The notes beneath the pieces are model-generated. The model did not search any database. It saw nothing but the letters and a program-made list of their open reading frames with translations, and was not told the origin of the DNA. Of a stretch of 21,820 nt of DNA, positions 1 to 21,182 are shown piece after piece. The stretch comes from Candidatus Hadarchaeota archaeon. Lineage in GTDB: Archaea > CAYQAE01 > CAYVLA01. How positions within the stretch are numbered: position 1 is the first letter of the stretch; each line of letters begins with the position of its first letter. The position numbers were made by a program, and so were the translations under genes. The DNA is taken from assembly GCA_964621445.1 (NCBI GenBank), contig CAZUNO010000033.1, positions 1-21,820 on the forward strand, in the 5' to 3' direction.

Positions 1-203
1 GCCTCCAACTCCTTTTTCACGGCATCGAAAACCTCTTCGATATCGTATCCCAGGTCCATCTTCTCGGATACAAGCTCCAGGACTTCCTCCCTGGAAACGG
101 CGTACGTCCCCACTATCAGGGCGACCCGAGCCTCCAGGTAGCGCTTCCTGTCCTCCTTTTTCCGGGGTTCCTCCTTCTTTCGGATCCTAGAGAATATGCC
201 CAG
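1..203 (-). CDS. Hypothetical protein, 5' part only (runs off the window); probable CTG start, begins (M)GIFSRIRKKEEPRKKEDRKRYLEARVALIVGTYAVSREEVLELVSEKMDLGYDIEEVFDAVKKELE
   Basis: Not in the ORF track. Translated by hand: open frame from 203 to the window edge, AGGAGG (211-216) 7 nt before CTG, in-frame TAG just upstream with no ATG/GTG/TTG in between, TATA-like box at 239-247. Confidence 0.75.
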   Translation of the reverse strand, partial: MGIFSRIRKKEEPRKKEDRKRYLEARVALIVGTYAVSREEVLELVSEKMDLGYDIEEVFDAVKKELE

Positions 204-238
204 GGGGATTCCTCCTGATGTCCCCTATTGGTGGGGCC

Positions 239-251
239 TTAAATAAATTTC
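239..251 (-). promoter_or_regulatory. Putative archaeal BRE/TATA promoter (GAAATTTATTTAA) for the 203-start gene
   Basis: AT-rich TTTATTTAA preceded by GAAA, about 35 nt upstream of the start codon. Confidence 0.55.
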
Positions 252-281
252 AGGAAACTGGCTGTCGAAATTTGAGCTTTC

Positions 282-1085
282 CTAGGAGGAGTATATCTTC
301 ATGTTTCTATTGCTTCCAACCGAGCGTGAAAGGTTTTCCATGACGCTGACCTTCACCGACCGGTCGCCAAAGATCAGGGTGTAGACCTGGCGCTGATCGG
401 CTCCCTCCTTCAACACATAGCTAAACTTGGGATAGTTATCCTTGTTCGACCGCAGGACCCTTTCCACAACCTTCCGGGGCTTGCCCCGTATTTCCACGTC
501 TATGCACTCGCCCTCTTCGGAAAATATCTCGTGGATGACGTCCTCCCGGATGCTGTATATGTTGGTCCTTCCCCTGTTGTCGACGACCTCCAGGGCGTTG
601 TAACGATTGTTCAGGATTGAGAGTATGTGCCTCTCGGATTCGGGAATGGAGGTTGAGTCGAAGGTGCTTCCCCCGAATTCCAGGGCCAGGTCCTTGAGCA
701 CCCTATTGTACTTGGTACCGTTGCTGGGGATCTTAACCTCATCCTGATCCTCCTTTCCCGAGGGGGCCACGCACTGGGATAGTTCCTCGCTTATGTCCAC
801 CAATTTCGATATCTTTTCCTCGATCCTCTCAATTCGCTCCTCGAGCTTCCTGCTTTTCATCCTAAACGAGCTGGATATGGATGACGCATGGCCATGGTAT
901 TCATTGGCGCCGCCCTCCTCACCCTTGGTAAGGCTTCCATTCAACTGGGGGAGATTCTGAACAAGGTGTATCAGAGTTTCATCATCCAGTGATGGGAAGG
1001 TCATCTTAAGGGTTCCGTCCCGTTTCATCTCGACCTCAAGCTTAAGTGGTTTACTCAGAACTCTATTTGACTCCTTAGTACTCAT
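282..1085 (-). CDS. Paralog A: N-terminal beta-hairpin/helix module + coiled coil + winged-helix-like domain + C-terminal ferredoxin-like module; function unknown
   Basis: 267 aa ORF with GAGGTG RBS at 1092-1097. Contains LEERIERIEEKI and IPSNGTKY...RHILSILNNRYNALEVVDNRGRTNIY, which align by eye with three neighbouring ORFs. Confidence 0.85.
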   Translation of the reverse strand: MSTKESNRVLSKPLKLEVEMKRDGTLKMTFPSLDDETLIHLVQNLPQLNGSLTKGEEGGANEYHGHASSISSSFRMKSRKLEERIERIEEKISKLVDISEELSQCVAPSGKEDQDEVKIPSNGTKYNRVLKDLALEFGGSTFDSTSIPESERHILSILNNRYNALEVVDNRGRTNIYSIREDVIHEIFSEEGECIDVEIRGKPRKVVERVLRSNKDNYPKFSYVLKEGADQRQVYTLIFGDRSVKVSVMENLSRSVGSNRNMKIYSS

Positions 1086-1110
1086 TCAACCCACCTCTTA
1101 GTTTCAATAT

Positions 1111-1131
1111 CCCCGAATTCCCCGAATTCGG
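1111..1131. repeat. Tandem CCCCGAATT x2 ending in the palindrome CCGAATTCGG
   Basis: CCCCGAATT at 1111-1119 and 1120-1128; CCGAATTCGG at 1122-1131. A second palindrome, GTTTCGAAAC, lies at 1144-1153. Confidence 0.6.
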
Positions 1132-1152
1132 AAAGGTCAGATTGTTTCGAAA

Positions 1153-1165
1153 CTACCGTGTCGAA
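1153..1165 (+). promoter_or_regulatory. Candidate operator motif CTACCGTGTCGAA (copy 1)
   Basis: 12/13 identical to CTACCGAGTCGAA at 1737-1749; both copies are preceded by CCGAATTC. Function is inferred. Confidence 0.35.
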
Positions 1166-1179
1166 AACGATGATCCTCA

Positions 1180-1194
1180 CTTAAATTTATTTTG
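1180..1194 (-). promoter_or_regulatory. Possible TATA element for paralog A (CAAAATAAATTTAAG)
   Basis: AT-rich box containing TTTAAG about 95 nt upstream of ATG 1085. Confidence 0.35.
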
Positions 1195-1297
1195 CAGTGA
1201 GCCTCTCACCCTTGACCCACGCCAGGTATAATCCATCCACGCGATATTTTCCTCTATCTTGAATTATATCCCATTTTAATGCATTATGATTGGTATA

Positions 1298-1305
1298 TTT
1301 TTAAG
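1298..1305 (+). promoter_or_regulatory. Putative TATA box (TTTTTAAG) for the small coiled-coil gene
   Basis: About 40 nt upstream of ATG 1346. Confidence 0.45.
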
Positions 1306-1345
1306 TGTGGAGAATGTATTGCATTAACACCTGTCGGTGAATGTA

Positions 1346-1555
1346 ATGGCTGCCACAATGGGGATGGAACAGGCCCTCGATGATCTCGAGAGGAGAATAG
1401 ACTCCCTCGAGGAAAAGGTCAACACTGCTCTTGAACAGAGCATATGTCTTTTGGAATATGTGAAGGAGAACCCCTCCAGAATTCGACCCCAGAGAACCGT
1501 AACCCGCCGCATTATACTGGAGGAAACCACGGCAATACCGGAAGCCGTTGACTAG
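1346..1555 (+). CDS. Small protein B consisting of the family coiled coil only (LDDLERRIDSLEEKVNTAL), no winged-helix domain
   Basis: The track gives GTG 1337; ATG 1346 is preferred because GGTGA (1336-1340) lies 5 nt upstream. The heptad segment aligns with the coiled coils of the four paralogs. Confidence 0.7.
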   Translation: MAATMGMEQALDDLERRIDSLEEKVNTALEQSICLLEYVKENPSRIRPQRTVTRRIILEETTAIPEAVD

Positions 1556-1626
1556 GGGTAGGGGAGAGCCCCCATTCTCCGTGTTTTAATCCATCCTCAT
1601 TAACCCATAACACGCCTTGATCCCTC

Positions 1627-1660
1627 TTTTTTGACAGGCTGCAATGCATTTACAGCCTTT
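1627..1660 (+). terminator. Possible terminator: T6 run followed by the inverted repeat AGGCTG-CAATGCATTTA-CAGCCT
   Basis: TTTTTT at 1627-1632; arms at 1636-1641 and 1653-1658, about 70-100 nt downstream of the stop of gene B. Confidence 0.3.
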
Positions 1661-1736
1661 CGTATGTCCTAATCCCGTCAACAAGGCTTCTTCAACCCTT
1701 GATTTGACATTCCGAATTCTGATCAATCATTCATAG

Positions 1737-1749
1737 CTACCGAGTCGAA
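1737..1749 (+). promoter_or_regulatory. Candidate operator motif CTACCGAGTCGAA (copy 2)
   Basis: Near-identical to 1153-1165; CCGAATTC at 1712-1719; lies upstream of the TATA-like box of paralog C. Confidence 0.35.
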
Positions 1750-1784
1750 TGTTATTGAGCACGTTTAAGGGTCCGGGCCACCTA

Positions 1785-1795
1785 GCTTAATAAGC
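1785..1795 (+). promoter_or_regulatory. Putative TATA box TTAATAAG within the inverted repeat GCTTA-A-TAAGC, for paralog C
   Basis: About 47 nt upstream of ATG 1842. Confidence 0.45.
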
Positions 1796-1841
1796 AGTGG
1801 TTGGTTTCTCATATTAGCAACAGGTCTGGGAATGATAATCA

Positions 1842-2252
1842 ATGGTACATGATCCGGAAGCTAACCGTTCGGTGGTAGCCTCCACCAACCCGGCAATCAC
1901 CAACATGGAAAGGCTGGGCAGCCGACTGGGAAGACTGGAGGAAACCGTCGATCAGTTGATAGCCACACACAAGACCCTGATGGAAAAGCTGCAGGCAGAG
2001 AAACAGGAGGATGACCGGAAGCTAATGCCCAGCCCCAATACCAAGTACTTTGACTTCCTCGTCTATCTGGAGGAGACCTTCAAGGGATCCCAGTTTACCA
2101 GCGATGAGATACCCAAGAAGAGCAGGCACATTCTCTCCATTCTCAACACCGAATACAAGGCCCTTGACGTGGTGTCCAAGCGAGGGCGTACCAACGTTTA
2201 CACCGTATCTCCCCAGGTCCGGGAGAAAATCGAGAGCCAGGAAACGGATTGA
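1842..2252 (+). CDS. Paralog C: minimal form, coiled coil + winged-helix-like domain
   Basis: 136 aa. LGSRLGRLEETVDQLI followed by MPSPNTKYF...FTSDEIPKKSRHILSILNTEYKALDVVSKRGRTNVY. Confidence 0.85.
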   Translation: MVHDPEANRSVVASTNPAITNMERLGSRLGRLEETVDQLIATHKTLMEKLQAEKQEDDRKLMPSPNTKYFDFLVYLEETFKGSQFTSDEIPKKSRHILSILNTEYKALDVVSKRGRTNVYTVSPQVREKIESQETD

Positions 2253-2279
2253 AGGGTCAATGATACCGGACCTACCAGA

Positions 2280-2287
2280 TTTATAAG
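2280..2287 (+). promoter_or_regulatory. Putative TATA box TTTATAAG for paralog D
   Basis: Close match to the archaeal TTTAWA consensus, 35 nt before ATG 2323, in the 70-nt C-D spacer. Confidence 0.55.
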
Positions 2288-2322
2288 ACAGCTCGAGGTT
2301 AACTAGACGGCCTTGGTCCATC

Positions 2323-2976
2323 ATGATTGAAATTATCAAGGAGCCCAGCGGGCCGGTGACCATCCGGATATCGGATGAGGATATTGAAGATATCAAGGAG
2401 ATACTGGGCTCTCTTTTCCGGGAGACCTCATTTGCCCAGGGGCGCATGAGGGCCCTTTCCAATCGGTTCCAGGACCTGGAGGACTCAATTGGGCAGCTGA
2501 TAGATATAAACAACCAGCTGGCCAGCGCCCTTCAGGAACAGGAGGAGACCAGGCCCCATCTTCCGGCACCGGGAACCAAGTACTTCCAGAGGCTCTGGAG
2601 CCTCTGCGCCAATAATATCGATCAAACCTTCACCAGCGAGGATGTCCCGGAAAACGAGCGGCACATCCTGTCAATCCTCAAGAACGAGTACGATGTTTTG
2701 GAGGTTGCCCGGAAGAAGGGAAGGCGTAACTTCTATCGTGTCAAGCCGGATATAGCCAGGAAGCTGATCGGGGATAATGGCTACCGGTTCTCCACCCAGG
2801 TGAGCCCCGAGGATAGAGAGGATATGGACTCCCTGGTGGAGGCCGAGAGGGGAGAGAAGAAATTCATCGCGGACACCCGGGAGGGAAAGACGGGGGTTAT
2901 CTACGAGTTTTTCTTCCCGGATCCGGAGGCCGGAGAGGCCTTCGAAAAAAAGGTCCTGGAGACTCCGGCCCAGTAA
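2323..2976 (+). CDS. Paralog D: N-terminal module + coiled coil + winged-helix-like domain + divergent C-terminal alpha/beta module
   Basis: 217 aa. LSNRFQDLEDSIGQLI and LPAPGTKYF...FTSEDVPENERHILSILKNEYDVLEVARKKGRRNFY. Confidence 0.85.
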   Translation: MIEIIKEPSGPVTIRISDEDIEDIKEILGSLFRETSFAQGRMRALSNRFQDLEDSIGQLIDINNQLASALQEQEETRPHLPAPGTKYFQRLWSLCANNIDQTFTSEDVPENERHILSILKNEYDVLEVARKKGRRNFYRVKPDIARKLIGDNGYRFSTQVSPEDREDMDSLVEAERGEKKFIADTREGKTGVIYEFFFPDPEAGEAFEKKVLETPAQ

Positions 2977-2979
2977 CCA

Positions 2980-3810
2980 TCAGGCCTCGCGGACTATCAG
3001 GTTGGTCTTGTTTCCCACGAAACGTCCTAGATTGGAGGTAACCGACAGCTGGACGGAGTTGTCCTTGAAGAACAGCCTGTATTTCTGCCTTAGACCGTTT
3101 CCCTCCAGGAAGGCGTAGGTGAACCCGGGGTATCTCTTCTGATTGGTGTCAAGGAAGGCGTCGCAGCTCTTCTTGTCCTTGCCCCGTATCTCGATTATGT
3201 TGGAGGTTCCCTCACTGGCCAGTATCTTCTGCATCACGCCCCTGCGGACCTTGTAGATGTTTGTGCGTCCCTGGGTCTCGGTGACCTTCAGGGCATTGTA
3301 CTTGTTGTTTAGAATTGACAGCACGTGCCTATCGTCCTCGGCCACGTCCCTTCCGGTGAATGTATCGTTTCCGAACCTCTCAACGAGCTCCTGGAGGACG
3401 GAATGATATTTGGTGCCCGAGCTCGGTATCTTTGGTTCCTGTTCGTCGTCCTCGGGATTGAGGTTCTGTATGAGTTTTTGGTTCATTTCGATGAGATTTC
3501 CAATCTTCTCCTCGAGGGTGCCGATCCTGCCCTCGATCTCCTTTCTCCTTCTCCTGACCCTCTCATCGCCCGCATCCTGCTGAGCGCTGCGCTCATCCTG
3601 CTGGTCCTCATCCTCCCCTTCCTGGACGTCGACTGATTTGACCTTGATTCCATTTGATGATTGTCGCTGCGGGGATTGCCATCCGTTGGAAATGTTCTGG
3701 ATGAACTCCATCAACTGTTTAACGTCGCTCACCGGCAGTTTCAAATGAACGGTACCGATGTCGCTCAGCTCTATCTCCACGCTCCCTATCCTCTTGGTCT
3801 CCACCATCAT
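2980..3810 (-). CDS. Paralog E: same full architecture as paralog A (closest pair), with a longer acidic linker
   Basis: The track start 3813 is TTG; ATG 3810 sits 6 nt after GAGG (3817-3820). IEGRIGTLEEKIGNLI and IPSSGTKY...RHVLSILNNKYNALKVTETQGRTNIY; the C-terminal EIRGK..YP.F.Y...EG...RQ.Y.L.F.D.SV..SV..NL.R.VG pattern is shared with A. Confidence 0.85.
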   Translation of the reverse strand: MMVETKRIGSVEIELSDIGTVHLKLPVSDVKQLMEFIQNISNGWQSPQRQSSNGIKVKSVDVQEGEDEDQQDERSAQQDAGDERVRRRRKEIEGRIGTLEEKIGNLIEMNQKLIQNLNPEDDEQEPKIPSSGTKYHSVLQELVERFGNDTFTGRDVAEDDRHVLSILNNKYNALKVTETQGRTNIYKVRRGVMQKILASEGTSNIIEIRGKDKKSCDAFLDTNQKRYPGFTYAFLEGNGLRQKYRLFFKDNSVQLSVTSNLGRFVGNKTNLIVREA

Positions 3811-3855
3811 CAACAGCCTCTTTTACGGTTTTGATATAACAACTGGGAATATCTT

Positions 3856-3874
3856 AACCTTAATAAAGGTTTCG
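3856..3874 (-). promoter_or_regulatory. Putative BRE/TATA promoter (CGAAACCTTTATTAAG) for paralog E, embedded in the inverted repeat AACCTT-AATA-AAGGTT
   Basis: Purine-rich BRE-like CGAAA followed by TTTATTAA, about 50 nt upstream of the start. Confidence 0.6.
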
Positions 3875-4083
3875 TAATCCTCTGAAGGTCGGCGGCTTCC
3901 TATCGTTGTGAGTATCACGGGGCATTTGACCTGCTTATTGTGCTCCTTGTAAAGTCTTATCTGGACATTTACGTCTCCAGAGGGCTTTAAATTCTAAATA
4001 AGAATTTCTAGGAACTTATAAGGCGATATCACTCTTCATTTATGGTATGGAATCCTCGCGAAATGAAATGCGAGTATCACATG

Positions 4084-4125
4084 TTTGATATCCATGGCTA
4101 ACTGGATATCCATCCAGATATCAAA
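4084..4125. repeat. Inverted repeat TTTGATATC...GATATCAAA enclosing a third GATATC
   Basis: GATATC at 4087, 4105 and 4117 (also 4025); GATATCCAT is directly repeated at 4087 and 4105. Confidence 0.5.
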
Positions 4126-4261
4126 GCAAGCACGAGAAATCCCATATCGAGGGCGTTCCAAAACCTTCGATCAATGGCATTCCATTCATCCCCAAACGGC
4201 AGAGACCGGAAGTTTGTCATGCTTTTTATTGCCCTATGGTTAGATATAGACCAGAGCTATC

Positions 4262-5359
4262 TTGACCATATCCGTCTCGGTCCCCGGAAGGATCAATGTC
4301 CTTGGCAACCCAACCGATGGGCTGGAAGGAGACTTCTGCACCATCTCCTGCGCCGTTTCCCTTCGTACCTACGGCGTATTCGAGGAGAGCGATGACTTCC
4401 TGGTTGACGTCAGGACCTCCGAGGGAGCCGACTCCTACCGCACGGTCCTCAAGAACGAATACAGGTACAACGGAAAGTACGACATCGTAAAGGCCTCCAT
4501 AAACAGGCTCAAGAAGGAATGCCCCGGCTTTTCCGACAAGTTCGAGGAGACCAAGTTCAGGCTCACCACCTGGACCGATATACCTCCCCGCAGCGGCCTG
4601 GGAGGGTCCTCGGCGGTCATAAACATGGTCCTGGTTGGATGCGTCCACCTCTATGGTCTTGATCTGAACAGGTTCAACGACTACCGCCTGGCCGAGATCT
4701 GCACCCGGGTCGAGTGCGACGAGCTAGGCTTCACCTGCGGCTACGCCGACAGGTACAGCACCCTGTTGGGTGGGCTGGCCTACATCGATTACCGGGACAA
4801 GCTCCACCACAAGCCCATCGACCAGGAGCCCTACGCCACCTACGAGAGGCTGGACCGCTACATACAGTCCATGCCCATGTTCATAGTGTACACCGGCGTG
4901 GCCCGAGACTCGGGCAACGTCCATGGAGTACTACGGGACCGGTACATGAAGGAGCTAGCCGGACAGGCGCAGGGCGAAAGATACGCCCTCAAGGGCATGA
5001 AAAAAATCGCCCGGACGGCCATAGAAGGGAAGAAGAGGCTGCTGGAGGGGGACTGGGAGGGATTCGGGTCCCTGATGAACGATAACCATCGATGGATTGA
5101 CTGGGTTATGAGAAAGGCCGGCTTCGAACACGGGGCCGGTGAGGTCGATAACCTGCTGGTTAACGAGGCAATCAAAAGAGGGGCTCTGGGTGCAAAGTTA
5201 ACCGGAGCCGGGGGAGGAGGGTGTGTGTGCATCCTCGCTCCTCATGGAAAAAAGGATAAGCTAATTCAATCCATGCACTCGGCCATAGAGGAGAGGGAAC
5301 TGGATGGCGCCAGGATATTTGACTTCGACATCTCCAGAAACGGTTACGTGGTTAGGTAG
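4262..5359 (+). CDS. GHMP-family sugar kinase (glucuronokinase/heptose-7-P kinase-like)
   Basis: PGRINVLGNPTDG (motif I), IPPRSGLGGSSA (ATP-binding motif II), GAKLTGAGGGG (motif III). TTG start; TTTTTATT box at 4223-4230. Confidence 0.88.
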   Translation: MTISVSVPGRINVLGNPTDGLEGDFCTISCAVSLRTYGVFEESDDFLVDVRTSEGADSYRTVLKNEYRYNGKYDIVKASINRLKKECPGFSDKFEETKFRLTTWTDIPPRSGLGGSSAVINMVLVGCVHLYGLDLNRFNDYRLAEICTRVECDELGFTCGYADRYSTLLGGLAYIDYRDKLHHKPIDQEPYATYERLDRYIQSMPMFIVYTGVARDSGNVHGVLRDRYMKELAGQAQGERYALKGMKKIARTAIEGKKRLLEGDWEGFGSLMNDNHRWIDWVMRKAGFEHGAGEVDNLLVNEAIKRGALGAKLTGAGGGGCVCILAPHGKKDKLIQSMHSAIEERELDGARIFDFDISRNGYVVR

Positions 5360-5367
5360 ATCCGGTA

Positions 5368-6258
5368 TTATCTGGAAAGGATCTGCTCAAGCCTGCTTCT
5401 AAACTCGGTGCTGATCTCGGGGTCGGCCAGGCACATATCCACGAAGGCCAGTCCATAGGTCAGCAGGTCGCCTATATCGTGCCTCTTTTCCCGATCGTTA
5501 AGCTTGAAGGCCCAAACCGGGTCCCCATCCCTTAGCATTATCCGGATGGCGTCTGTTAGCTGCCTCTCGCCGCCATGCCCCCTAGGGGTGCTCCGGATGG
5601 CGTCGAATATCCGCGGGTTGAACACGTATCTAGCGGCCACCGCCAGGTTGCTAGGGGCCTCCTCCACCTTTGGCTTCTCCACGATATCATCCAGGCGCAG
5701 GGAAAGACCGTCCACCAGTCGGGGTTTCACCACCCCGAACCTGCTTAATCTTTCCTTCTCCACCTCCTCCACGGCTATGGTGGCGCTGGCACCGGTCCTG
5801 GTGTGGGCATCGATCAGCTTCCACAGAAATCTGCCCCCCTCGTAGCTCTGTATTATGGTGTCACCCAGGCTAACGGCAAAGGGCTCGTCATCCACGAAGC
5901 TCTCTCCCAAGAGCACGGCATCCGCCAGGCCCGTGGGTTGGGATTGACGGGTGTAGTAAAGCTGAATGTCGAGATCGTCCAGGAAACGTACCTCCTTTAG
6001 GACCTCATCCTTGCCTCTATCCTCAAGCAATCGGTTGAGAACCGGGTCCCGATCAAAATGATCCTCGATCGCCCTCTTACGGGCGCCGGTGATGATCAGA
6101 ATCTGCTTTATCCCTGCACTGGCCGCCTCCTCCACCACGTGCTGGATCACGGGTTTCCGGCCCACGGGGACCATTTCCTTGGGCTGGGACTTGGTGGCGG
6201 GGAGGAGCCTGGTTCCGAAACCGGCGGCAGGGATTACGCACTTGGTGATCTTCCTCAT
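5368..6258 (-). CDS. galU: UTP--glucose-1-phosphate uridylyltransferase
   Basis: KCVIPAAGFGTRLLPATKSQPKEM signature; RQ..P.GL.DA, LGD and VEKP motifs. Confidence 0.9.
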   Translation of the reverse strand: MRKITKCVIPAAGFGTRLLPATKSQPKEMVPVGRKPVIQHVVEEAASAGIKQILIITGARKRAIEDHFDRDPVLNRLLEDRGKDEVLKEVRFLDDLDIQLYYTRQSQPTGLADAVLLGESFVDDEPFAVSLGDTIIQSYEGGRFLWKLIDAHTRTGASATIAVEEVEKERLSRFGVVKPRLVDGLSLRLDDIVEKPKVEEAPSNLAVAARYVFNPRIFDAIRSTPRGHGGERQLTDAIRIMLRDGDPVWAFKLNDREKRHDIGDLLTYGLAFVDMCLADPEISTEFRSRLEQILSR

Positions 6259-6340
6259 GGTGATACCGATATCTAGTGATTCTCCAGGCTCAAAAACGTC
6301 ACCCCTAGAGGTTGAAAACCAATTCGCACCGTTCGATACT

Positions 6341-7351
6341 TTATCCGACGATCACGGGCATGGCCGAGAAGCGTGGTTCCAGGGACGATGCCAGGCTGCG
6401 GCTTTCCTCCGGGGAACGGGCCAGTGCTATTATCGATCCCGCGCCCCCGGCCCCGGTCCACTTGGCACCCAGGGCACCGGCATCGCGCACCGCCTCCAGG
6501 GCCTCGTAGAGCACCGGAACGCCCAGCTCCTGGCTACAGAAGGGCTTCAAGCCGCGGTCATAGCACTCCTGGTTCCTGTTCATTAGCTCCCCTATCCTCT
6601 CCAGCCGGCATTTGCCTTCCATCTCCGACCTGCCACGGAGAACGAGTTCAGGTATGTCCTTGCCCAGGGTTCGGACTATCAGTGGGTCCTTCTCCTGGAA
6701 ATAGAAGCGGTTTAGGGTGTTCAGTATCCTCTTGGTGTCCCTTTCCCCGCCCAGGTCCACCACCACCAGGGGGAGCTGGTGCTTCATCTCGATGGGGGAG
6801 TATCGAAAACCGTTCTCAAAATCTATGAAAAGGGGCGATTCGTGGGCGGCCGCCGTCTGGTCCATCATCCCGCAGCCTATGCCCAGCAGGCCGTTTTCGG
6901 CCCTGTAGGAAACGCGGACCAGGTCATCCATGTCTAATCCCAGGAAATCGAGCACGTTCAAAGCCTTGCAGACCGAGATGCACAGAGCGGCCGATGAGGA
7001 GAGTCCCTTCTTCATGGGCACATCCGAATTTATCTCCATGTCAGTCCCTCCCAGCTGGCATCCCCTTTCCTGGAGAGCTGCCACCACGGCGTTTACATAT
7101 CGAAGGGAGCTTTCCATCAAGGGGAGGTTAGCAGCCTCGTCGAGCCGAAATTCGGCCTCCTCTTCCTGGTCGTGAAACGTATTCCTAATTCTGATACTGA
7201 TCAGGTCACCCTCCCTCTTCCTGGCCCTGGTGACTATTTTCCTATCCATCGAGGATGCGATAACCTGCCTTTGAGCCCAGTCACAGTGATCGCCTAGCAG
7301 GCAAACTCGGCCAAAACCAACTCCCTCCGCGTTTTCACTAATCTTCACCAT
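6341..7351 (-). CDS. GHMP-family sugar kinase (galactokinase-like, substrate uncertain)
   Basis: GRVCLLGDHCDW, PMKKGLSSSAA, AE...G.GCG.MDQ and GAKWTGAGGAG motifs; 14-nt overlap with the upstream epimerase. Confidence 0.88.
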   Translation of the reverse strand: MVKISENAEGVGFGRVCLLGDHCDWAQRQVIASSMDRKIVTRARKREGDLISIRIRNTFHDQEEEAEFRLDEAANLPLMESSLRYVNAVVAALQERGCQLGGTDMEINSDVPMKKGLSSSAALCISVCKALNVLDFLGLDMDDLVRVSYRAENGLLGIGCGMMDQTAAAHESPLFIDFENGFRYSPIEMKHQLPLVVVDLGGERDTKRILNTLNRFYFQEKDPLIVRTLGKDIPELVLRGRSEMEGKCRLERIGELMNRNQECYDRGLKPFCSQELGVPVLYEALEAVRDAGALGAKWTGAGGAGSIIALARSPEESRSLASSLEPRFSAMPVIVG

Positions 7352-8465
7352 CTCCTACCACCAGGCCCCGGCTCCTCAACTCCCGGGATGCCTTTTCATA
7401 ACCATCAGCCGACTCCTCATTCTCGGCCCACTGAATGAAATTCCTTATGCCGGTCTTCAGATCCACACTAGGTTCAAATCCATAATTGCGAATACTTTCT
7501 ATTTTCGCATAGCAATGACGAATATCTCCCTTACGGTAATCCCCCGAAATGTGTGGGTCTAGGTCCACGCCACATTCATCGATCATCATCCTCGCTAGGG
7601 ATATGATGGAGGTCGGTATCCCGGTTCCTACATTGAATCGGCCATAATTCATGGCCTGGCTTTCCATTGCCAGGACATTGGCATTAACCACATCGGCGAC
7701 GTTAACGAAATCCCGGCTCTGTAAACCATCTTCATAGACTATCGGAGGTTTACCTGCCCTGATTCGGGATAGAAAAATCGATGCGACCCCCGTATAGGGA
7801 TTTGATAAGGACTGACCGGCTCCCTGTACGTTGAAATACCTCAGGGCGACGGTCGGGATTCCATAGGTTTTTCCAACTAGAAGGGCCATATCCTCCTGGT
7901 CTCTTTTACTCATGGCATATATGGAGGTCGGATCCCTGGGCTTGTCCTCCCCGGTGCCCACAGCCTTCAGTTCTCGACCACACTCCTCGCACCTTGGTTC
8001 CCATAAACCTCGCTTCAGGTTTTCTGACCCTCGTGGCCCAGGAAACATGGGTCCGCAGTTATCGCAGATATACGCTCCCTCACCGTAAACCGTGTTTGAG
8101 GATGCGACCATGAGCTTACTAACCTCATGCTCCTGGTTAACAAGGAAATCAAGTAGATTTGCCGTCCCCCCGATGTTGACGTCGACATACTTACCAATCT
8201 GATACATGCTTTGGCCGATACCGACGGAGGCGGCCTGGTGAAAGATCACCTCCACGCCCTCCATACAGCCTGACCAGTCTTCAGTGTTTCGCACATCCCC
8301 CTCCACAAATTCTAGGCCCTCTGGTGGGTTAACGGACCCGCCGTGAACCTGGGGCTCGAGATTATCCAGAATCCTGACCTCGTTGCCCCTATCCACCAGC
8401 TCGTGGGCCAGGTGGGAGCCTATGAAGCCCAAACCACCGGTAACCAGAACCTTGCTGCTCGTCAT
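7338..8465 (-). CDS. NAD-dependent nucleotide-sugar epimerase/dehydratase (extended SDR) with a 4-Cys insertion
   Basis: TGGLGFIGSH (GxxGxxG), catalytic YAMSK, LRYFNV.G and RDFV motifs; AGGAG RBS. Confidence 0.92.
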   Translation of the reverse strand: MTSSKVLVTGGLGFIGSHLAHELVDRGNEVRILDNLEPQVHGGSVNPPEGLEFVEGDVRNTEDWSGCMEGVEVIFHQAASVGIGQSMYQIGKYVDVNIGGTANLLDFLVNQEHEVSKLMVASSNTVYGEGAYICDNCGPMFPGPRGSENLKRGLWEPRCEECGRELKAVGTGEDKPRDPTSIYAMSKRDQEDMALLVGKTYGIPTVALRYFNVQGAGQSLSNPYTGVASIFLSRIRAGKPPIVYEDGLQSRDFVNVADVVNANVLAMESQAMNYGRFNVGTGIPTSIISLARMMIDECGVDLDPHISGDYRKGDIRHCYAKIESIRNYGFEPSVDLKTGIRNFIQWAENEESADGYEKASRELRSRGLVVGDGED

Positions 8466-8511
8466 CTAGATCTCCTTGTAAGTAGGGAAATTTAACGTTG
8501 ACCCAGAAAAT

Positions 8512-8537
8512 ATTGGAAAGCGATGCGATTTCCCAAT
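8512..8537 (-). terminator. Imperfect hairpin ATTGGGAAA-N9-TTTCCAAT followed by ATTTTCT
   Basis: Starts 10 nt downstream of the stop codon at 8548. Confidence 0.25.
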
Positions 8538-8547
8538 CGGAACCAAG

Positions 8548-9519
8548 TTAGCCAAGCAAGCGGGAGGCCACGCTAACCGGGGACTCCATGCTCCTCATAA
8601 CCCGGGAAATCTTTCGCCGTATCTTCCTCCTCCTTCCCGCATCCAGAAGGGAACAAACCTGGTCTCTAAGGGTGTGTTCATCCCTGGTTTCAAGGACCTG
8701 GGAGTACATGGCTTGTAGGTCCCCGTAACGTTGATGGGGGAGAAGCACCAGGGGTTTTCCAAGGACAAAGAATTCCGCCGCCATCCTCCCTGATCCCACA
8801 TAGAGGTCATGTATCAATGGGGGAGGGTTGACCGAAACCTGGGCACCAGTACTCGGACCAGGCTCCTGTTCGGACTCGATACGGGTCATCACCTCGCCTA
8901 CATCCTGCTTGAGCATTTGGGTGACCTTCTGGATCCAAGCCCTCTCTGTTTGTTCTCTTGATCTGAGAAGCACTCTCGATGTGTCCTCCCGCTGGGAGTT
9001 CCTCATGCTCGCCCACGGCTCTTCCAGGAGATAGCACTCGTTCCATCCCTTGAAATTGTGTATCTGGTCCCTGACCAGTCCCATGGATACCAACCTTTCA
9101 TCGGGAAAATCCTGGGAAACGAAGATCTTCTCGCAAAGAGGAAGGGTCATTCTCTGGACGTTGCTCTGAACGGAATTTGCCGCCTCGCGGAAAAAGGTCC
9201 AAACTGGCATGCCCAGGCCAAACGCCGTCCTTACGGCCGAGGGATCGAGATCTGAGATCAAAAGGTCCGGCTCCCTCCTCTTGATGAAATCGGTTAGTTC
9301 AAGTATTCGGTGGCCGTATGAATGGGTTGAGCTGGATCCATTGTGACTTCCATTGAACTGGGAAAAATTCACCTGGTTCCCGTAAAGAACGCGCGCCAGT
9401 GAAGGGTTACGACTGGTGGTGACCACCACCTCTACATCGGGGTGTAGTTCATAGATTAGGGTGGCAAGTAGATTTGCCTGGCGAATCGATGTGATATCCA
9501 GCCACACCTTTGTGCTCAA
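8548..9519 (-). CDS. DUF354-like (GT-B fold) protein, divergent copy
   Basis: N-terminal KVWLDITS..Q, PDLLIS..P.A.R.AFGLG.P and LTLPL-like MTLPL..KI patterns typical of DUF354; colinear with the neighbouring paralog; TTG start. Confidence 0.7.
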   Translation of the reverse strand: MSTKVWLDITSIRQANLLATLIYELHPDVEVVVTTSRNPSLARVLYGNQVNFSQFNGSHNGSSSTHSYGHRILELTDFIKRREPDLLISDLDPSAVRTAFGLGMPVWTFFREAANSVQSNVQRMTLPLCEKIFVSQDFPDERLVSMGLVRDQIHNFKGWNECYLLEEPWASMRNSQREDTSRVLLRSREQTERAWIQKVTQMLKQDVGEVMTRIESEQEPGPSTGAQVSVNPPPLIHDLYVGSGRMAAEFFVLGKPLVLLPHQRYGDLQAMYSQVLETRDEHTLRDQVCSLLDAGRRRKIRRKISRVMRSMESPVSVASRLLG

Positions 9520-9640
9520 TTTTTAACCCTACTCGTTCGACGGGCGGCTTGGAATAAATAGCTATGCAGAACCTCTGTATATGACAACTCTGGGGACAGA
9601 TGTCACCTGAGTGATTGGTTTCAAAGCCTTGGCAAAGGTT

Positions 9641-10678
9641 TCATGCACCAATATCGGAATCTAAAAGGGAATCGATTATGTCCACCGGGTCCTCCATACT
9701 ACCTATCACTTCCTGGGATCTCCTTTGGTATTCCTTTCCTGAATCCTGGTCCAGCAGATCGGTGGCCAGATCGCATACCTCCCGGGGGTCCGTTGACCTC
9801 GGGATGTGACGGTGAAGAACCTGCATGGGGACGGTCAGGTCCCAGTAGATGCAGCTGAGGGCCGGTACCCCCAGGGTGAAGGCCTCGCATAGCATGGTCT
9901 CCGCCGATCCCATCACCAGATCGGAGTGGGCAATCGGGTTTCCTGGCAGGGATGATTCCGGGATTATGGCCCCTATCCTCCGGTATCTCTCCCGCTGTTC
10001 GGCGGTCCGGGGTAGGACAACTATGTTAAGATCCATCCTGCTCAACATGCGCTCCACGACCTCTTCCAGGATCGGTTCATAGCTATCGAAGAAAACCGAG
10101 AACTCGAACTCGGGACGTACCAGTATTAGGGGGGCCTGTTCATGGTTAAGTTGCAGGTGTTGGAAGGGATCGATCTGCGGTATCTCAGCACCCTTTAGAT
10201 AGCAGGTGATGAAGCCATTGAACCAGATGATCTTATCCTTATCGGTCACTCCCTGGCCCTGTATGGTCTCGAATTCGTAAAAAGAAGGGACCAGAACCCT
10301 GCTCGCGAGGGGATGGGTCATCCTGTTTACGTGGAACTCCCGCTCATCATTGAATATGGTCCAGCAGGGGATATCCGCCAGGTGGGCAACGTGAACCGCG
10401 GGGGGATACCTCTCGGTTAGAACCAGGTCAGGGTCGTAATCATCGACCAGATCCCCCATGGAGATAAGCGAATTGGCAAATTCCTTTAGCTTCATGTCCA
10501 GGCTCGATCCCTTGTAGCCTCCCAGATTGACGTGCTCTAATCCCTTATCCTCCAGCATGGATAGGGTAACGTCCCTGTCCCTGGCGGCAAACAGGTACTC
10601 CTCACCAGGCCTCCTCCTAACCAGTTCGTGGAAGAAATTTACCTGAAAGGGCGTACTCACCGCACATATTATCCTCAT
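9641..10678 (-). CDS. DUF354 family predicted glycosyltransferase (GT-B fold)
   Basis: STPFQVNFF, ARDRD.T..ML, DPDLV, NRMTHPLA, ILVRPE, VVLPR..EQ and TM.CEA..LGVPA motifs; ATGA overlap with aglH. Confidence 0.8.
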   Translation of the reverse strand: MRIICAVSTPFQVNFFHELVRRRPGEEYLFAARDRDVTLSMLEDKGLEHVNLGGYKGSSLDMKLKEFANSLISMGDLVDDYDPDLVLTERYPPAVHVAHLADIPCWTIFNDEREFHVNRMTHPLASRVLVPSFYEFETIQGQGVTDKDKIIWFNGFITCYLKGAEIPQIDPFQHLQLNHEQAPLILVRPEFEFSVFFDSYEPILEEVVERMLSRMDLNIVVLPRTAEQRERYRRIGAIIPESSLPGNPIAHSDLVMGSAETMLCEAFTLGVPALSCIYWDLTVPMQVLHRHIPRSTDPREVCDLATDLLDQDSGKEYQRRSQEVIGSMEDPVDIIDSLLDSDIGA

Positions 10679-11790
10679 TTCTCATCACCTTCCAAAGTAG
10701 TATCCGGACTGAAATTGGCTTTCTCTACAATGGCCCTGAAGGATAGTATGATCCCGGCCACCGGCAGAGTCCCGATGACCAGCCTATGAAAGGGGTTGTT
10801 TCGGTAGCCGATGATGCCCAAAACACCTGATCCCGGGAGAATTAGGGCCAATAGCACCGCGGCCAGACCACAGAGGGCCGAGATTCCCCATAAGCCATGC
10901 ACCAGCTTCCTTTCCCTGGATAGAACCTTCATGACCTGATGGGTAAGACTCATGTAGGGTGCCGGGGTGAGGGTACTATCATCGTTCAGGCTCGAATGTC
11001 CTAATTGGCTTGTGGAGAAGGATATCCTGGCCTTGAACAGGAAATCAAGGATCAGTGGAAGAAAGATGAGTACTGCAAAGAACTCCACTCCTCCCAGGAT
11101 GGCCGCAATACCAACTCCCGCGCCCATTAGCAGGGTCCCGGTGTCACCCGGAAAGACGCTTGATGGATATCTATTGTAAATCAGGAAGGCCGCCATACCG
11201 CCCATAAGGGGTAGCAGATAGGGGATGGACTCCCTTCTACCCACCAGATATATGACCGCAGAGGTGAAGAACAGCGAAATAAGGCAGACCCCGGTTTCCA
11301 GGCCGTTGAAGCCGGCATACATGTTTGCCAGGTTTGCGGTGACCGCCACTCCCACGGGGATCAATACAAGGGCGTAAACCAACCCCAGTGATACATATCC
11401 TAATCCCGGGAGGAAGATGTCCGTGGCATAGCTTCCGGAGGCCACTACGGGCAGGGCGGCAAAAAGGGTGAGAACCAGCTTGTGTCGCTGTCGAAGGCCG
11501 AATATATCATCGATGGCGCCCACTGCGGACATCAAGGCCAGGGAGAGGGCTATCCAGAGTATGGTAAGGGCTTGTTCTGGGATAAGAATGATCAGGGCAA
11601 CGAAGCCGGCCAAAACGCTGAGCAGGATGGAGACCCCGCCCATCTCCGGTATCTCCTGGTTCGATGGTTTATGTATATCCCTAGCGGATATACCCCTGTC
11701 CAGGAATTTCCTAGAGATCCATGGAGTTATGACTAGGCCCACGGTAAAGGGGATAACCAGAACTGCTATGGACTCAAATAAGGTCAGCAA
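10675..11790 (-). CDS. aglH: UDP-GlcNAc:dolichyl-phosphate GlcNAc-1-phosphate transferase (AglH/GPT-type, MraY/WecA superfamily)
   Basis: Multi-TM protein with DIHKP, IPEMGG, GAIDD, NLANMYAGFNGLE and YNRYPSSVFPGDTGT. The N.AG.NGLE and FPGDT forms are those of the archaeal/eukaryotic GPT branch. Confidence 0.82.
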   Translation of the reverse strand: MLTLFESIAVLVIPFTVGLVITPWISRKFLDRGISARDIHKPSNQEIPEMGGVSILLSVLAGFVALIILIPEQALTILWIALSLALMSAVGAIDDIFGLRQRHKLVLTLFAALPVVASGSYATDIFLPGLGYVSLGLVYALVLIPVGVAVTANLANMYAGFNGLETGVCLISLFFTSAVIYLVGRRESIPYLLPLMGGMAAFLIYNRYPSSVFPGDTGTLLMGAGVGIAAILGGVEFFAVLIFLPLILDFLFKARISFSTSQLGHSSLNDDSTLTPAPYMSLTHQVMKVLSRERKLVHGLWGISALCGLAAVLLALILPGSGVLGIIGYRNNPFHRLVIGTLPVAGIILSFRAIVEKANFSPDTTLEGDEK

Positions 11791-11914
11791 CTAATTCCAC
11801 AACAGTTTTTTTCGTGATAATGAAATATGGTTCCACCGTAATATTCCCATTGCGTTTAATTCTCGCAGTTCAAAATGACTCCTCTTTCAAACCATTGCAT
11901 GGCCTGTCATTGGT

Positions 11915-13699: not shown

Positions 13700-13703
13700 C
13701 CAC

Positions 13704-15164: not shown

Positions 15165-15188
15165 CGAAGTGATATATTCCCGGCCCGA

Positions 15189-15249
15189 ATTAAAAACCTC
15201 TGAGGTCGCATCGTTTCCAATTGACCCCGATTCACATATGTGTTTATGA
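15189..15249. promoter_or_regulatory. Divergent promoter pair: TTTTTAAT (minus, 15189-15196) and TTTATGA (plus, 15243-15249)
   Basis: Each lies 21-24 nt before the respective ATG, compatible with leaderless transcripts. Confidence 0.45.
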
Positions 15250-15270
15250 GGAAGCCCCTAGAAAGTTAAG

Positions 15271-16716: not shown

Positions 16717-16728
16717 CCGAATCGAGGT

Positions 16729-17793: not shown

Positions 17794-17959
17794 TACTCTC
17801 TCCCTCTCGTAGTTCTGGGCATTGACATGGCTTTATTTCCATATAATGAATTGCATTTTTGTGGGGGAAGCACCACCTCCAGTCCGCAACTTTCCAAGGC
17901 GTTGGTTCGAAAGACGTAATAGTGGAGTTCAAGGCCTATGATATAGGTCGTCTTGACCG

Positions 17960-18994: not shown

Positions 18995-18995
18995 A

Positions 18996-20015: not shown

Positions 20016-20028
20016 GGGAGGTGATCTC

Positions 20029-21147: not shown

Positions 21148-21182
21148 GGTCTAATGGAAGCGGGCTGGCTCCTACTGAGGAA

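What the first reader, a model, noticed from the sequence alone, without database searches (positions are those of the whole stretch)
1346..1555. Coiled-coil-only mini-protein, a candidate dominant-negative partner of the paralogs
Seen: this 69-aa ORF carries the family coil (DLERRIDSLEEKVNTALEQSICLLE, compare A: KLEERIERIEEKISKLVDISEELSQ) but no winged-helix block. It has its own TATA box and RBS and sits divergently from paralog A. Established: proteins with only an oligomerisation domain inhibit their transcription factors in eukaryotes (HSBP1 for HSF1, Id proteins for bHLH factors). Inference: B could enter hetero-oligomers and remove a DNA-binding head, giving a titration switch. The comparison is an analogy, not a homology claim.
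Basis: partly seen in the sequence, partly recalled or inferred. Interest (0 to 1): 0.72.

Follow-up and report, generated by a model that had tools for sequence, protein, structure and literature searches.

The report
Conserved headless coil mini-protein in archaea
A 69-residue gene is a conserved fifth member of a five-gene set of coil-plus-winged-helix proteins in uncultured archaea; it keeps a family-like coil, lacks the DNA-binding head and adds an unvarying tail, so it may tune its larger relatives, though binding is untested.

Summary
The ORF at 1346-1555 (+) is a real gene. It is intact (69-73 aa) in 3 of 3 related genome loci, inside the same cassette A(-) B(+) C(+) D(+) E(-). It evolves like a coding sequence: pN 0.27-0.34 against pS 0.63-0.76. 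A TATA box and a GGTG ribosome site precede it in 4 of 4 loci. "Decaying remnant" is rejected.

The coil likeness to the paralogs is position-specific. The four B orthologs are the top non-family hits among 354 local ORFs. They beat heptad-preserving shuffles. B shares the invariant Arg and Glu of an R-h-x-x-h-E motif. In bits, though, the likeness is no stronger than to unrelated trimeric coils such as HSBP1, HA2 and YadA, so common descent is not proven.

B is not "coil only". An invariant tail, RT(V/I)TRRI(I/V)LEETT..P, is as conserved as the coil and has no counterpart in the paralogs.

No tool result shows B binding a paralog. Best reading, at moderate confidence: a microProtein-like, SinI- or HSBP1-like headless subunit of the paralog oligomers. 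The family is new (no Pfam or NCBIfam match) and narrow: 5 clusters in 1.84 billion representatives.

The parts
1346..1555 (+). B: 69-aa small protein gene (ATG at 1346; the GTG at 1337 lies inside the SD and is unlikely to be the start)
   Evidence: Orthologs of 69, 70 and 73 aa in L001, L002 and L003. Seven further homologs of 69-73 aa. pN 0.27-0.34 against pS 0.63-0.76, and mismatches by codon position run 3>1>2.
1373..1465 (+). B coil module (residues 10-40): heptad helix with R17-I-D-S-L-E22, an R-h-x-x-h-E motif. Ala28 sits at the core d position where all paralogs have Leu.
   Evidence: Motif definition from PMC3653964. No model of B itself was made, so the helix is inferred from the heptad pattern and from alignment to the modelled helices of C and A.
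1493..1540 (+). B tail module (residues 50-65), RTVTRRIILEETTAIP: invariant or nearly invariant across the family, with no counterpart in A, C, D or E
   Evidence: entropy 0.56. All matches of the B profile to paralogs fall in profile positions 4-46.
1294..1305 (+). TATA-like box of B (TATATTTTTAAG)
   Evidence: A like box lies 39-55 nt before the ATG in 4 of 4 loci.
1336..1340 (+). Shine-Dalgarno-like GGTGA of B
   Evidence: GGTG(A) lies 6-11 nt before the ATG in 4 of 4 loci.
282..1085 (-). Paralog A (267 aa): beta-beta-alpha N-domain, coil, winged-helix-like domain, beta-alpha-beta-beta-alpha-beta C-domain
   Evidence: Model with pLDDT 76. Foldseek local hits to PII/GlnK and CutA1 with probability 0.97-0.99, but no hit with E below 1e-3. 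15 orthologs.
1131..1154 (.). Conserved 24-nt block between A's TATA (1180-1195) and A's start; holds the palindrome GTTTCGAAAC (1144-1153); candidate operator
1842..2252 (+). Paralog C (136 aa): coil plus winged-helix-like domain only; own TATA CTTAATAAG at 1786-1794
   Evidence: Model with pLDDT 80. All top Foldseek hits are winged-helix proteins, with E of 0.027 or more. 20 homologs. TATA.
2323..2976 (+). Paralog D (217 aa)
2980..3813 (-). Paralog E (277 aa), the long form sister to A. Its coil is the closest to B's.
   Evidence: Tree. B profile scores best on E (8.7 bits). 78% DNA identity over 32 nt between 1386-1417 and 3505-3536.

Best explanation
B is a genuine, independently transcribed small protein. 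It is the fifth fixed member of a conserved cassette of paralogous coil proteins (A, C, D, E = coil + winged-helix-like domain; A and E also carry a PII-like C-terminal domain). The cassette is found in uncultured archaea whose MAG records are labelled Hadarchaeota or Thermococci.

B has three parts. The first is a helix of about 30 residues in the same heptad register as the paralog coil, with the same Arg(g)-h(a)-x-x-h(d)-Glu(e) motif. The second is a variable linker of about 10 residues. The third is an invariant, beta-branched tail, RT(V/I)TRRI(I/V)LEETT..P.

Inferred mechanism. B uses the coil to join the parallel oligomers (dimers or trimers) formed by the paralog coils, most likely those of the A/E type. 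That oligomer then carries one DNA-binding head fewer. The tail supplies a second, specific contact whose target is unknown. B's core Ala, where every paralog has Leu, would weaken B-only bundles and so favour mixed ones.

What is shown: gene reality, conservation, synteny, own promoter signals, position-specific coil likeness, absence of a head, and the conserved tail. What is inferred: coil-to-coil binding, its consequence (inhibition or tuning), DNA binding by the paralogs, and any link to the adjacent glycan genes.
For: - Cassette order A(-)B(+)C(+)D(+)E(-) with an intact B in 3 of 3 genome loci.
- B's mean amino-acid identity across the 4 loci is 0.55, similar to D at 0.57 and C at 0.61. 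pN is 0.30 against pS 0.70. dN/dS is 0.15-0.26 in the 5 of 6 pairs where it could be computed, with dS saturated.
- TATA and GGTG signals in 4 of 4 loci, and only the sense frame is open in all 4.
- With the ACDE profile, the 4 B orthologs are the next 4 hits among 354 ORFs, and all align to the coil positions 57-103.
- Heptad-preserving shuffles reach the real score in 0 of 300 trials for 9 of 11 B members, and in 1 and 6 of 300 for the other two.
- Arg and Glu are invariant across all five window proteins and across 16 of 16 ACDE sequences. They fit the R-hxxhE motif as defined in PMC3653964.
- Ala28 is invariant in 11 of 11 B sequences, at the position where Leu95 is invariant in 16 of 16 and 21 of 21 paralog sequences.
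- No unfavourable g-to-e' charge pair between B and any paralog coil.
- DNA identity of 78% over 32 nt to E's coil and 73% over 33 nt to A's coil.
- The four paralog groups are each monophyletic, so the cassette predates the split of these genomes.
Against: - Coil likeness is weak in absolute terms: hhalign probability 1.7% and E = 0.029; BLASTP E = 50 to A and 0.076 to C.
- B scores 7-13 bits against the ACDE profile. The ACDE profile gives 17.6 bits to human HSBP1, and the B profile gives 15-16 bits to fibrinogen, HA2 and YadA coils. The likeness could therefore be convergence on a trimer-type coil.
- The most conserved part of B, the tail, is not explained by a passive poison-subunit model.
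- No truncation intermediate and no winged-helix remnant was found.
- The oligomeric state is ambiguous. R-hxxhE and hydrophobic e positions point to trimers. Ile/Val at a, Leu at d, a polar a layer and a palindromic candidate operator point to dimers. By the passages read in PMC3653964, the motif also occurs in some dimers.
- The paralogs' DNA-binding role rests on models whose best Foldseek E-values are 0.027 and 0.0035.
- No result here shows B touching any paralog.
Confidence: 0.4

Rival explanations
1. B is an assembly or bridging subunit, not an inhibitor. Its coil nucleates or completes a defined hetero-oligomer of the paralogs, as HSBP1 is reported to promote WASH-complex assembly. Its tail holds a further partner or domain. 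Loss of B would then lower cassette function, not raise it.
For: B is fixed in the cassette in 4 of 4 loci at one copy, like a stoichiometric subunit. The invariant tail suggests a specific second interface. PMC8634480 (introduction passage and a reference title) states that HSBP1 forms trimers and is crucial for WASH complex assembly. All five coils are mutually charge-compatible.
Against: B has its own promoter signals and is not co-transcribed with a partner. That fits a separately dosed regulator at least as well. There are no binding data of any kind.
Confidence: 0.22
2. B acts on its own as a homo-oligomeric small coiled-coil protein. Its working part is the invariant tail, which might bind a non-paralog target such as an enzyme of the neighbouring glycan cluster or the basal transcription machinery. 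The coil likeness to the paralogs is convergent.
For: The tail is at least as conserved as the coil (entropy 0.56 against 0.63) and has no paralog counterpart. The coil likeness is within the generic range. HSBP1, XhlA and Spectrin_SESTD1 profiles hit 7, 7 and 9 of 11 B members at sub-threshold scores.
Against: The strict synteny with the four coil paralogs would then be a coincidence. The four B orthologs are the top four non-family hits to the paralog profile in their own loci. B shares the register and the invariant Arg and Glu. A core Ala at a d position should weaken a B-only bundle (inference).
Confidence: 0.2
3. B is a decaying remnant of a truncated paralog, or a spurious ORF.
For: It is short. 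It has no Pfam, NCBIfam, PADLOC or PHROGs family. Fewer homolog clusters were found for B (7) than for C (20) or A (15).
Against: B is intact at 69-73 aa in 11 of 11 family members, down to 51% identity. pN is well below pS, and codon-position mismatches run 3>1>2. Start, stop, TATA and SD are conserved. No alternative frame is open in all loci. No winged-helix remnant lies downstream.
Confidence: 0.03

Closest known systems
SinI-SinR of Bacillus subtilis (a small antagonist that shares only the oligomerisation surface of the repressor)
   Same: A small protein (SinI is 57 aa, per the abstract of PMC5864091 in the listing) is encoded next to its multi-domain DNA-binding relative. It lacks the DNA-binding domain. 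[quoted passage not shown] SinR controls matrix polysaccharide genes, and this cassette sits beside a glycan cluster. That parallel is an analogy only.
   Different: No sequence relation: no SinI family appears in the Pfam scans. SinR and SinI use a helical hook, not a long heptad coil, and an HTH of another type (recalled). Here there are four possible targets, an archaeal promoter set-up and an extra invariant tail. Binding is untested.
HSBP1-HSF1 (eukaryotes)
   Same: [quoted passage not shown] HSF1 itself trimerises (abstracts in the listing) and, from recall, carries a winged-helix DNA-binding domain. Both B and the paralog coil give their best or near-best sub-threshold matches to HSBP1: Pfam PF06825 hits 7 of 11 B members with best E = 0.0041, and PDB entry 3ci9 is the top hit of the ACDE profile at 17.6 bits and E = 0.021.
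   Different: The score is below Pfam's gathering cut-off (16.7 against 28.6 bits), so B is not a member. Domain order in the paralogs is coil then head, the reverse of HSF (recalled). B has a tail that HSBP1 lacks.
Plant and animal microProteins (Id proteins, LITTLE ZIPPER against HD-ZIPIII)
   Same: The concept is a small protein with a single interaction domain related to that of larger, evolutionarily related proteins, arising by duplication and domain loss ('trans-miP'). ZPRs bind HD-ZIPIII through a leucine zipper and abolish DNA binding (PMC9638782, abstract and introduction passages).
   Different: All described cases in that review are eukaryotic. A search of its text found 'prokaryot' 0 times. 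B carries a second conserved module. Common descent of B's coil from the paralogs is not proven.
R-h-x-x-h-E parallel trimerisation motif coils (coronin-1, ccbeta, FapF)
   Same: Arg at g, Ile/Leu/Val/Met at a, Leu/Ile/Val at d and Glu at e are present in register in A, B, C and E of the window. Definition taken from PMC3653964 and PMC6173795.
   Different: D has Phe at the a position. Two of 11 B members have Asp in place of Glu (alignment). [quoted passage not shown] The oligomeric state was not tested.

Membership tests
A/C/D/E paralog family of this cassette (coil + winged-helix-like domain) | Coil with invariant Arg and Glu (R84 and E89 in A numbering) in a fixed heptad register | tested here: met
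   Arg and Glu are invariant in the 5-protein alignment that includes B and in 16 of 16 ACDE sequences. The ACDE profile aligns to B at the coil positions. The real score beats heptad-preserving shuffles. The invariant Leu95 is Ala in B.
A/C/D/E paralog family of this cassette (coil + winged-helix-like domain) | GTKY...RHILSIL...GRTNxY winged-helix block | tested here: not met
   The block is absent from B and from all frames of 1300-1860. No profile match lies outside the coil.
A/C/D/E paralog family of this cassette (coil + winged-helix-like domain) | Statistically significant sequence homology | tested here: inconclusive
   hhalign E = 0.029, probability 1.7%. hmmsearch E = 0.002-0.064 in a database of 354 ORFs. 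The bit scores are no higher than for unrelated coils.
HSBP1 (Pfam PF06825) | Score at or above the gathering cut-off of 28.6 bits | tested here: not met
   16.7 bits and E = 0.0065 for window B. 7 of 11 family members match at E up to 1, with best E = 0.0041.
SinI-type antagonist (sequence family) | Match to a SinI/SinR multimerisation-domain profile | tested here: not met
   No such family is among the Pfam matches of B or of the 11 B members at E up to 1.
microProtein / oligomerisation-domain-only antagonist (functional class) | Small, and lacks the functional (DNA-binding) domain of its larger relatives | tested here: met
   B is 69 aa with no winged-helix block.
microProtein / oligomerisation-domain-only antagonist (functional class) | Consists of a single interaction domain only | tested here: not met
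   A second conserved module, the tail at residues 50-65, is as conserved as the coil.
microProtein / oligomerisation-domain-only antagonist (functional class) | Binds the related larger protein and blocks its activity | not testable with these tools
   This needs pull-down, SEC-MALS and EMSA. No tool result here bears on it.
Parallel trimeric coiled coil with the R-h-x-x-h-E motif | Arg(g)-[ILVM](a)-x-x-[LIV](d)-Glu(e) in register | tested here: met
   Window B has R17-I-D-S-L-E22. 9 of 11 B members have Glu and 2 of 11 have Asp (L001, L003) (alignment). Register. Definition from PMC3653964.
Parallel trimeric coiled coil with the R-h-x-x-h-E motif | Three-stranded parallel assembly | not testable with these tools
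   No oligomer model or measurement is available, and the motif also occurs in some dimers (PMC3653964 introduction passage).

The most novel reading that the evidence does not exclude
The five genes encode a combinatorial oligomeric regulator built on one shared coil. A, C, D and E would be HSF-like coil-plus-winged-helix subunits, with A and E also carrying a PII-like sensor domain. B would be the dedicated headless subunit that sets how many DNA-binding heads each oligomer carries, while its invariant tail adds a second, specific contact. That would be an archaeal microProtein switch, evolved independently of SinI, Id, ZPR and HSBP1. It would probably autoregulate through GTTTCRRAAC sites and control the adjacent surface-glycan genes.
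Probability: 0.17. Interest if true: 0.75.

Novelty: new variant of a known kind. Interest (0 to 1): 0.5.

Why it matters
Headless, oligomerisation-domain-only partners are an established way to tune transcription factors in eukaryotes (Id, ZPR, HSBP1) and in Bacillus (SinI). Two full-text searches found no described archaeal case.

This locus offers a compact candidate that can be tested in vitro: five small soluble proteins, a candidate operator, and a clear prediction that B changes oligomer composition and DNA binding.

It also defines two families that have no profile in Pfam or NCBIfam. One is the coil + winged-helix + PII-like paralogs. The other is the B mini-protein with its invariant tail.

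The limits are plain. The lineage is uncultured and narrow, and nothing beyond sequence and fold prediction supports the function.

Tried and rejected
- **Complex prediction.** Complex prediction of full-length A (alignment A8, 21 rows) with B (alignment A6, 11 rows), B as partner, gave a verdict of 'no answer': score 0.13 and 0.13 against a mark of 0.32, and the controls were not run. Only the 1:1 A+B pair was tried. C, D, E, 2:1 mixtures and B alone were not, because the cap was 1 job.
- **Family libraries.** Pfam, NCBIfam, PADLOC and PHROGs gave nothing at or near a curated cut-off for A to E. The JukA hit to A (E = 0.0014, 16.4 bits) and the MoaD hit to A (E = 0.0004, 20.8 against a cut-off of 49.5) were set aside as weak.
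- **ESM Atlas.** The best score was 0.87 for B and 0.85 for C, both under the 0.9 level. MarR-type names appeared for C as a lead only.
- **PDB by sequence.** Only generic coils came up.
- **Rfam on 1-4400.** There was one sub-threshold C/D-box match.
- **B-C spacer.** There is no conserved RNA structure (consensus energy -0.95 kcal/mol) and no conserved small ORF. The only hits are antisense shadows of B.
- **Fused or longer forms of B.** The representatives search has no length filter. It found two 137-aa entries whose first 65 residues look like upstream read-through, not a domain.
- **Mobile-element origin.** tblastn of A against phages and plasmids found no match.
- **B's tail as a derivative of paralog helix 1 or the wing.** This was considered because window C has YLEETF. 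It was rejected because the C family varies there (YLDQNF, YLNENF) and the B profile never aligns its tail to a paralog.
- **g/e' charge pairing as a guide to the preferred partner.** It did not discriminate.
- **Cluster look-up.** Whether the B orthologs of L001 and L002 are annotated anywhere therefore stayed unchecked.
- **Closed collections.** Presence or absence of B on the other contigs that carry A or C homologs could not be checked.

Full report
**What is at the coordinates**

Positions 1346-1555 (+) hold an ATG-started ORF of 69 codons plus stop. It lies between paralog A (282-1085, -) and paralog C (1842-2252, +). D (2323-2976, +) and E (2980-3813, -) follow. All four larger proteins share a coil followed by the block GTKY..F..RHILSILNN.Y.AL.V...GRTN.Y. 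B aligns to them only over the coil. No trace of the block exists in any frame of 1300-1860. None of the five proteins matches a Pfam or NCBIfam family at or near its cut-off. The rest of the window (4262-21820) encodes sugar-nucleotide and glycan-assembly enzymes: GHMP kinases, GalU, an epimerase, an MraY-like transferase, a B12-radical-SAM protein, ManC, two FemAB-like proteins and GT4 transferases.

**Is B a real gene?**

Yes.
- A word-indexed search of 5.8 billion proteins found 7 homologs of 69-73 aa at 60-97% identity (alignment).
- A full HMMER pass with the family profile over 1.84 billion representatives found 8 hits at E up to 0.001. Five belong to the family. The other three are repetitive coiled coils. 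Two of the five are 137-aa calls whose extra N-terminus looks like upstream read-through.
They come from MAGs labelled 'uncultured Thermococci archaeon' and 'Candidatus Hadarchaeota archaeon'.
- All three loci carry the whole cassette in the same order and orientation, with B intact at 69, 70 and 73 aa and 52-56% identity.
- Across the four loci B has pN 0.27-0.34 against pS 0.63-0.76. dN/dS is 0.15-0.26 in the 5 of 6 pairs where dS could be computed. Synonymous sites are saturated, so the ratio is rough. Mismatches by codon position run 3>1>2.
- B's mean identity (0.55) is close to that of D (0.57) and C (0.61).
- Only the sense frame is open in all four loci.
- A TATA-like box, (A)TATTTTTAA(G/T), lies 39-55 nt upstream, and a GGTG(A) ribosome site 6-11 nt upstream, in 4 of 4 loci. 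C has its own invariant CTTAATAAG box.
- The 266-320-nt spacer between B and C holds no conserved ORF or RNA structure.

**Is it 'the family coil'?**

The answer depends on the measure.

*For the claim:*
- An HMM built from 16 A, C, D and E sequences was searched against all 354 ORFs of 40 aa or more in the four loci. After its own members it ranks the four B orthologs next (E 0.002-0.064, 7-12 bits). All four align to the coil positions, and the following hit has E = 3.
- The coil of each of the 11 B members was shuffled with core and non-core heptad positions kept apart. The shuffles reach the real score in 0 of 300 trials for 9 members, and in 1 and 6 of 300 for the other two. The likeness is therefore position-specific, not just composition plus heptads.
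- B shares the two coil residues that never vary in the paralogs, Arg and Glu.
- At the DNA level B's coil is 78% identical over 32 nt to E's and 73% over 33 nt to A's.
- The B profile scores E best (8.7 bits), then A (7.1), C (5.4) and D (2 or less).

*Against the claim:*
- Pairwise BLASTP gives E = 50 to A and 0.076 to C.
- hhalign of the B family against the C family gives E = 0.029 and probability 1.7%.
- Unrelated coils do as well or better. The ACDE profile's best PDB hit is human HSBP1 (3ci9, 17.6 bits, E = 0.021).
- The B profile's best PDB hits are fibrinogen alpha, influenza HA2 and YadA coils at 15-16 bits.
- Pfam HSBP1, XhlA and Spectrin_SESTD1 match 7, 7 and 9 of 11 B members below threshold.

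My reading is that the resemblance is real and in register, but it cannot be told apart from convergence on one type of coil.

**What type of coil?**

The shared Arg and Glu frame the pattern R-[ILV]-x-x-[LI]-E in A, B, C and E. D has Phe at the first hydrophobic position. With the register set by the a/d hydrophobic residues, Arg is at g and Glu at e. This is the published trimerisation motif Arg(g)-h(a)-x-x-h(d)-Glu(e), said to specify parallel three-stranded coils. [quoted passage not shown] The original description by Kammerer and colleagues is recalled and was not seen.

Other signals point both ways:
- Hydrophobic e positions favour a trimer.
- The PII/CutA-like C-domain of A also favours a trimer. 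The model has pLDDT 76. Foldseek local matches have probability 0.97-0.99, but no hit has E below 1e-3. That those proteins are trimers is recalled.
- Ile/Val at a, Leu at d, a polar a layer (Ser, His or Asn) and a palindromic candidate operator favour a dimer.

The oligomeric state is open.

One difference is systematic. The core d position that is Leu in 16 of 16 and 21 of 21 paralog sequences is Ala in 11 of 11 B sequences. I infer that this weakens B-only bundles relative to mixed ones. Charge pairing at g/e' shows no clash between any two of the five coils, so it gives no partner preference.

**B is not coil-only**

B has two conserved modules separated by a variable linker of about 10 residues:
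- the coil, alignment columns 10-39, mean entropy 0.63
- the tail RT(V/I)TRRI(I/V)LEETT..P, columns 50-66, mean entropy 0.56
- the linker between them, mean entropy 1.92 (invariant columns)

The tail is rich in beta-branched residues, which suggests a strand (inference; no model of B was made). It has no counterpart in the paralogs: every match of the B profile to a paralog lies in profile positions 4-46. A passive poison subunit would not need it, so any mechanism must give the tail a role.

**What the paralogs are**

- The C model (pLDDT 80) is a 41-residue helix followed by a helix, strand, helix and beta-hairpin domain. All leading Foldseek PDB hits are winged-helix proteins (eS25, FOXN1, HlyU/ArsR, TubR, AspA, NolR) with probability 0.85-0.97, but E is 0.027 or more and none is below 1e-3.
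- A adds a small beta-beta-alpha N-domain and a beta-alpha-beta-beta-alpha-beta C-domain.
- In a tree on 117 shared columns, C and D each form a clade with support of at least 95/92 and A forms one with 89/86. The E rows are unresolved within an A+E group supported at 88/82. The duplications therefore predate these genomes.
- DNA binding is thus inferred from fold only.

A possible operator supports that inference. A 24-nt block (1131-1154) between A's TATA box and its start codon is nearly invariant in 4 loci. It contains the palindrome GTTTCGAAAC. All 5 exact matches to GTTTCRRAAC in the three loci lie in cassette intergenic regions: upstream of A in L001 and L002, and between C and D in L002 and L003. 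With one mismatch allowed the window has 11 matches against 3.6 expected, and 0 of 100 shuffles reach 11. Some matches lie near the starts of glycan genes, at 4155, 6212 and 9618.

**Mechanism and rivals**

| Reading | Confidence |
|---|---|
| B joins paralog oligomers through its coil, most likely the A/E type, giving an oligomer with one head fewer; the tail makes a second specific contact | 0.40 |
| B is an assembly or bridging subunit, as HSBP1 is for the WASH complex (PMC8634480 passage) | 0.22 |
| B is an independent homo-oligomer whose tail acts on a non-paralog target | 0.20 |
| B is a remnant or an artefact | 0.03 |

What is shown is that B is real, conserved, syntenic, separately promoted, coil-like in register, headless and tailed. 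Binding and its effect are inferred.

**Comparison with what is known**

In the way it may work, B is closest to three systems:
- SinI-SinR, where the heterodimer surface is conserved between the two proteins and DNA binding is lost (abstract of PMC3163267, listing)
- HSBP1-HSF1
- eukaryotic microProteins such as ZPR and Id (PMC9638782, abstract and passages)

B is a member of none of these by sequence. HSBP1 scores 16.7 bits against a cut-off of 28.6, and no SinI family appears. B also fails the 'single domain' criterion of the microProtein class because of its tail. Two literature searches turned up no archaeal example. Subscription journals are largely outside that library.

**What stayed unchecked**

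- The complex prediction gave no verdict; it is reported under Tried and rejected.
The presence of B on the other contigs that carry A homologs (15 clusters) or C homologs (20 clusters) is unknown.
- No structure model of B alone was made, because both jobs went to C and A.

**Verdict**

B is a genuine, conserved and previously undescribed mini-protein. Interest is 0.5. Novelty is a new variant of a known kind.

Noticed in passing
window 1131-1154 (palindrome at 1144-1153); L001 2013-2022; L002 3230-3239, 3247-3256, 4512-4521; L003 2907-2916; window 4155, 6212, 9618: A near-invariant 24-nt block lies between A's TATA box and its start codon. It contains GTTTCGAAAC. All 5 exact GTTTCRRAAC sites in the three loci fall in cassette intergenic regions. 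One-mismatch sites are enriched in the window (11 against 3.6 expected), and some lie near the starts of glycan genes. This is a candidate operator of the winged-helix paralogs.
   Followed up: partly
window 282-1085 (-) and 2980-3813 (-): The long paralogs A and E carry a beta-alpha-beta-beta-alpha-beta C-terminal domain. Its best local fold matches are PII/GlnK and CutA1 proteins (probability 0.97-0.99, E about 0.01). They also carry a small conserved beta-beta-alpha N-domain. Together these suggest ligand-sensing regulators. NCBIfam gave a weak MoaD-family hit to the same region of A.
   Followed up: partly
window 3814-3900 (-); the corresponding stretches of L001, L002 and L003: E's upstream region has an invariant GAAACCTTTATTAA (BRE/TATA-like). 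About 26 nt downstream lies TATCAAAAC, which resembles the TTTCAAAAC of A's conserved block.
   Followed up: no
window 1556-1841 and the corresponding spacers in L001-L003: The B-C spacer is unusually long and keeps its length (266-320 nt) in all 4 loci. It is poorly conserved apart from a GCAGCCTTTC block and C's TATA box. No conserved ORF or RNA fold was found.
   Followed up: partly
window 4262-9519 and L001 5494-9774: The genes next to E are the same in the window and in L001: GHMP kinase, GalU, a second GHMP kinase and an epimerase. The cassette's link to a sugar-nucleotide and glycan cluster is therefore conserved in at least 2 genomes. The contigs of L002 and L003 end before this region.
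   Followed up: partly
window 3768-3817 (-): A sub-threshold Rfam match to the C/D-box sRNA sR53 (25.7 bits against a gathering score of 49, E = 0.0063) overlaps the 5' end of E. It is probably chance.
   Followed up: no
window 15271-16716 (+), 17960-20015 (+): A B12-binding radical-SAM protein and two tandem FemAB-like peptidyl-transferase homologs sit inside the glycan cluster, along with an MraY-like transferase at 10675-11790 (-). This hints at a peptide-decorated surface polymer.
   Followed up: no
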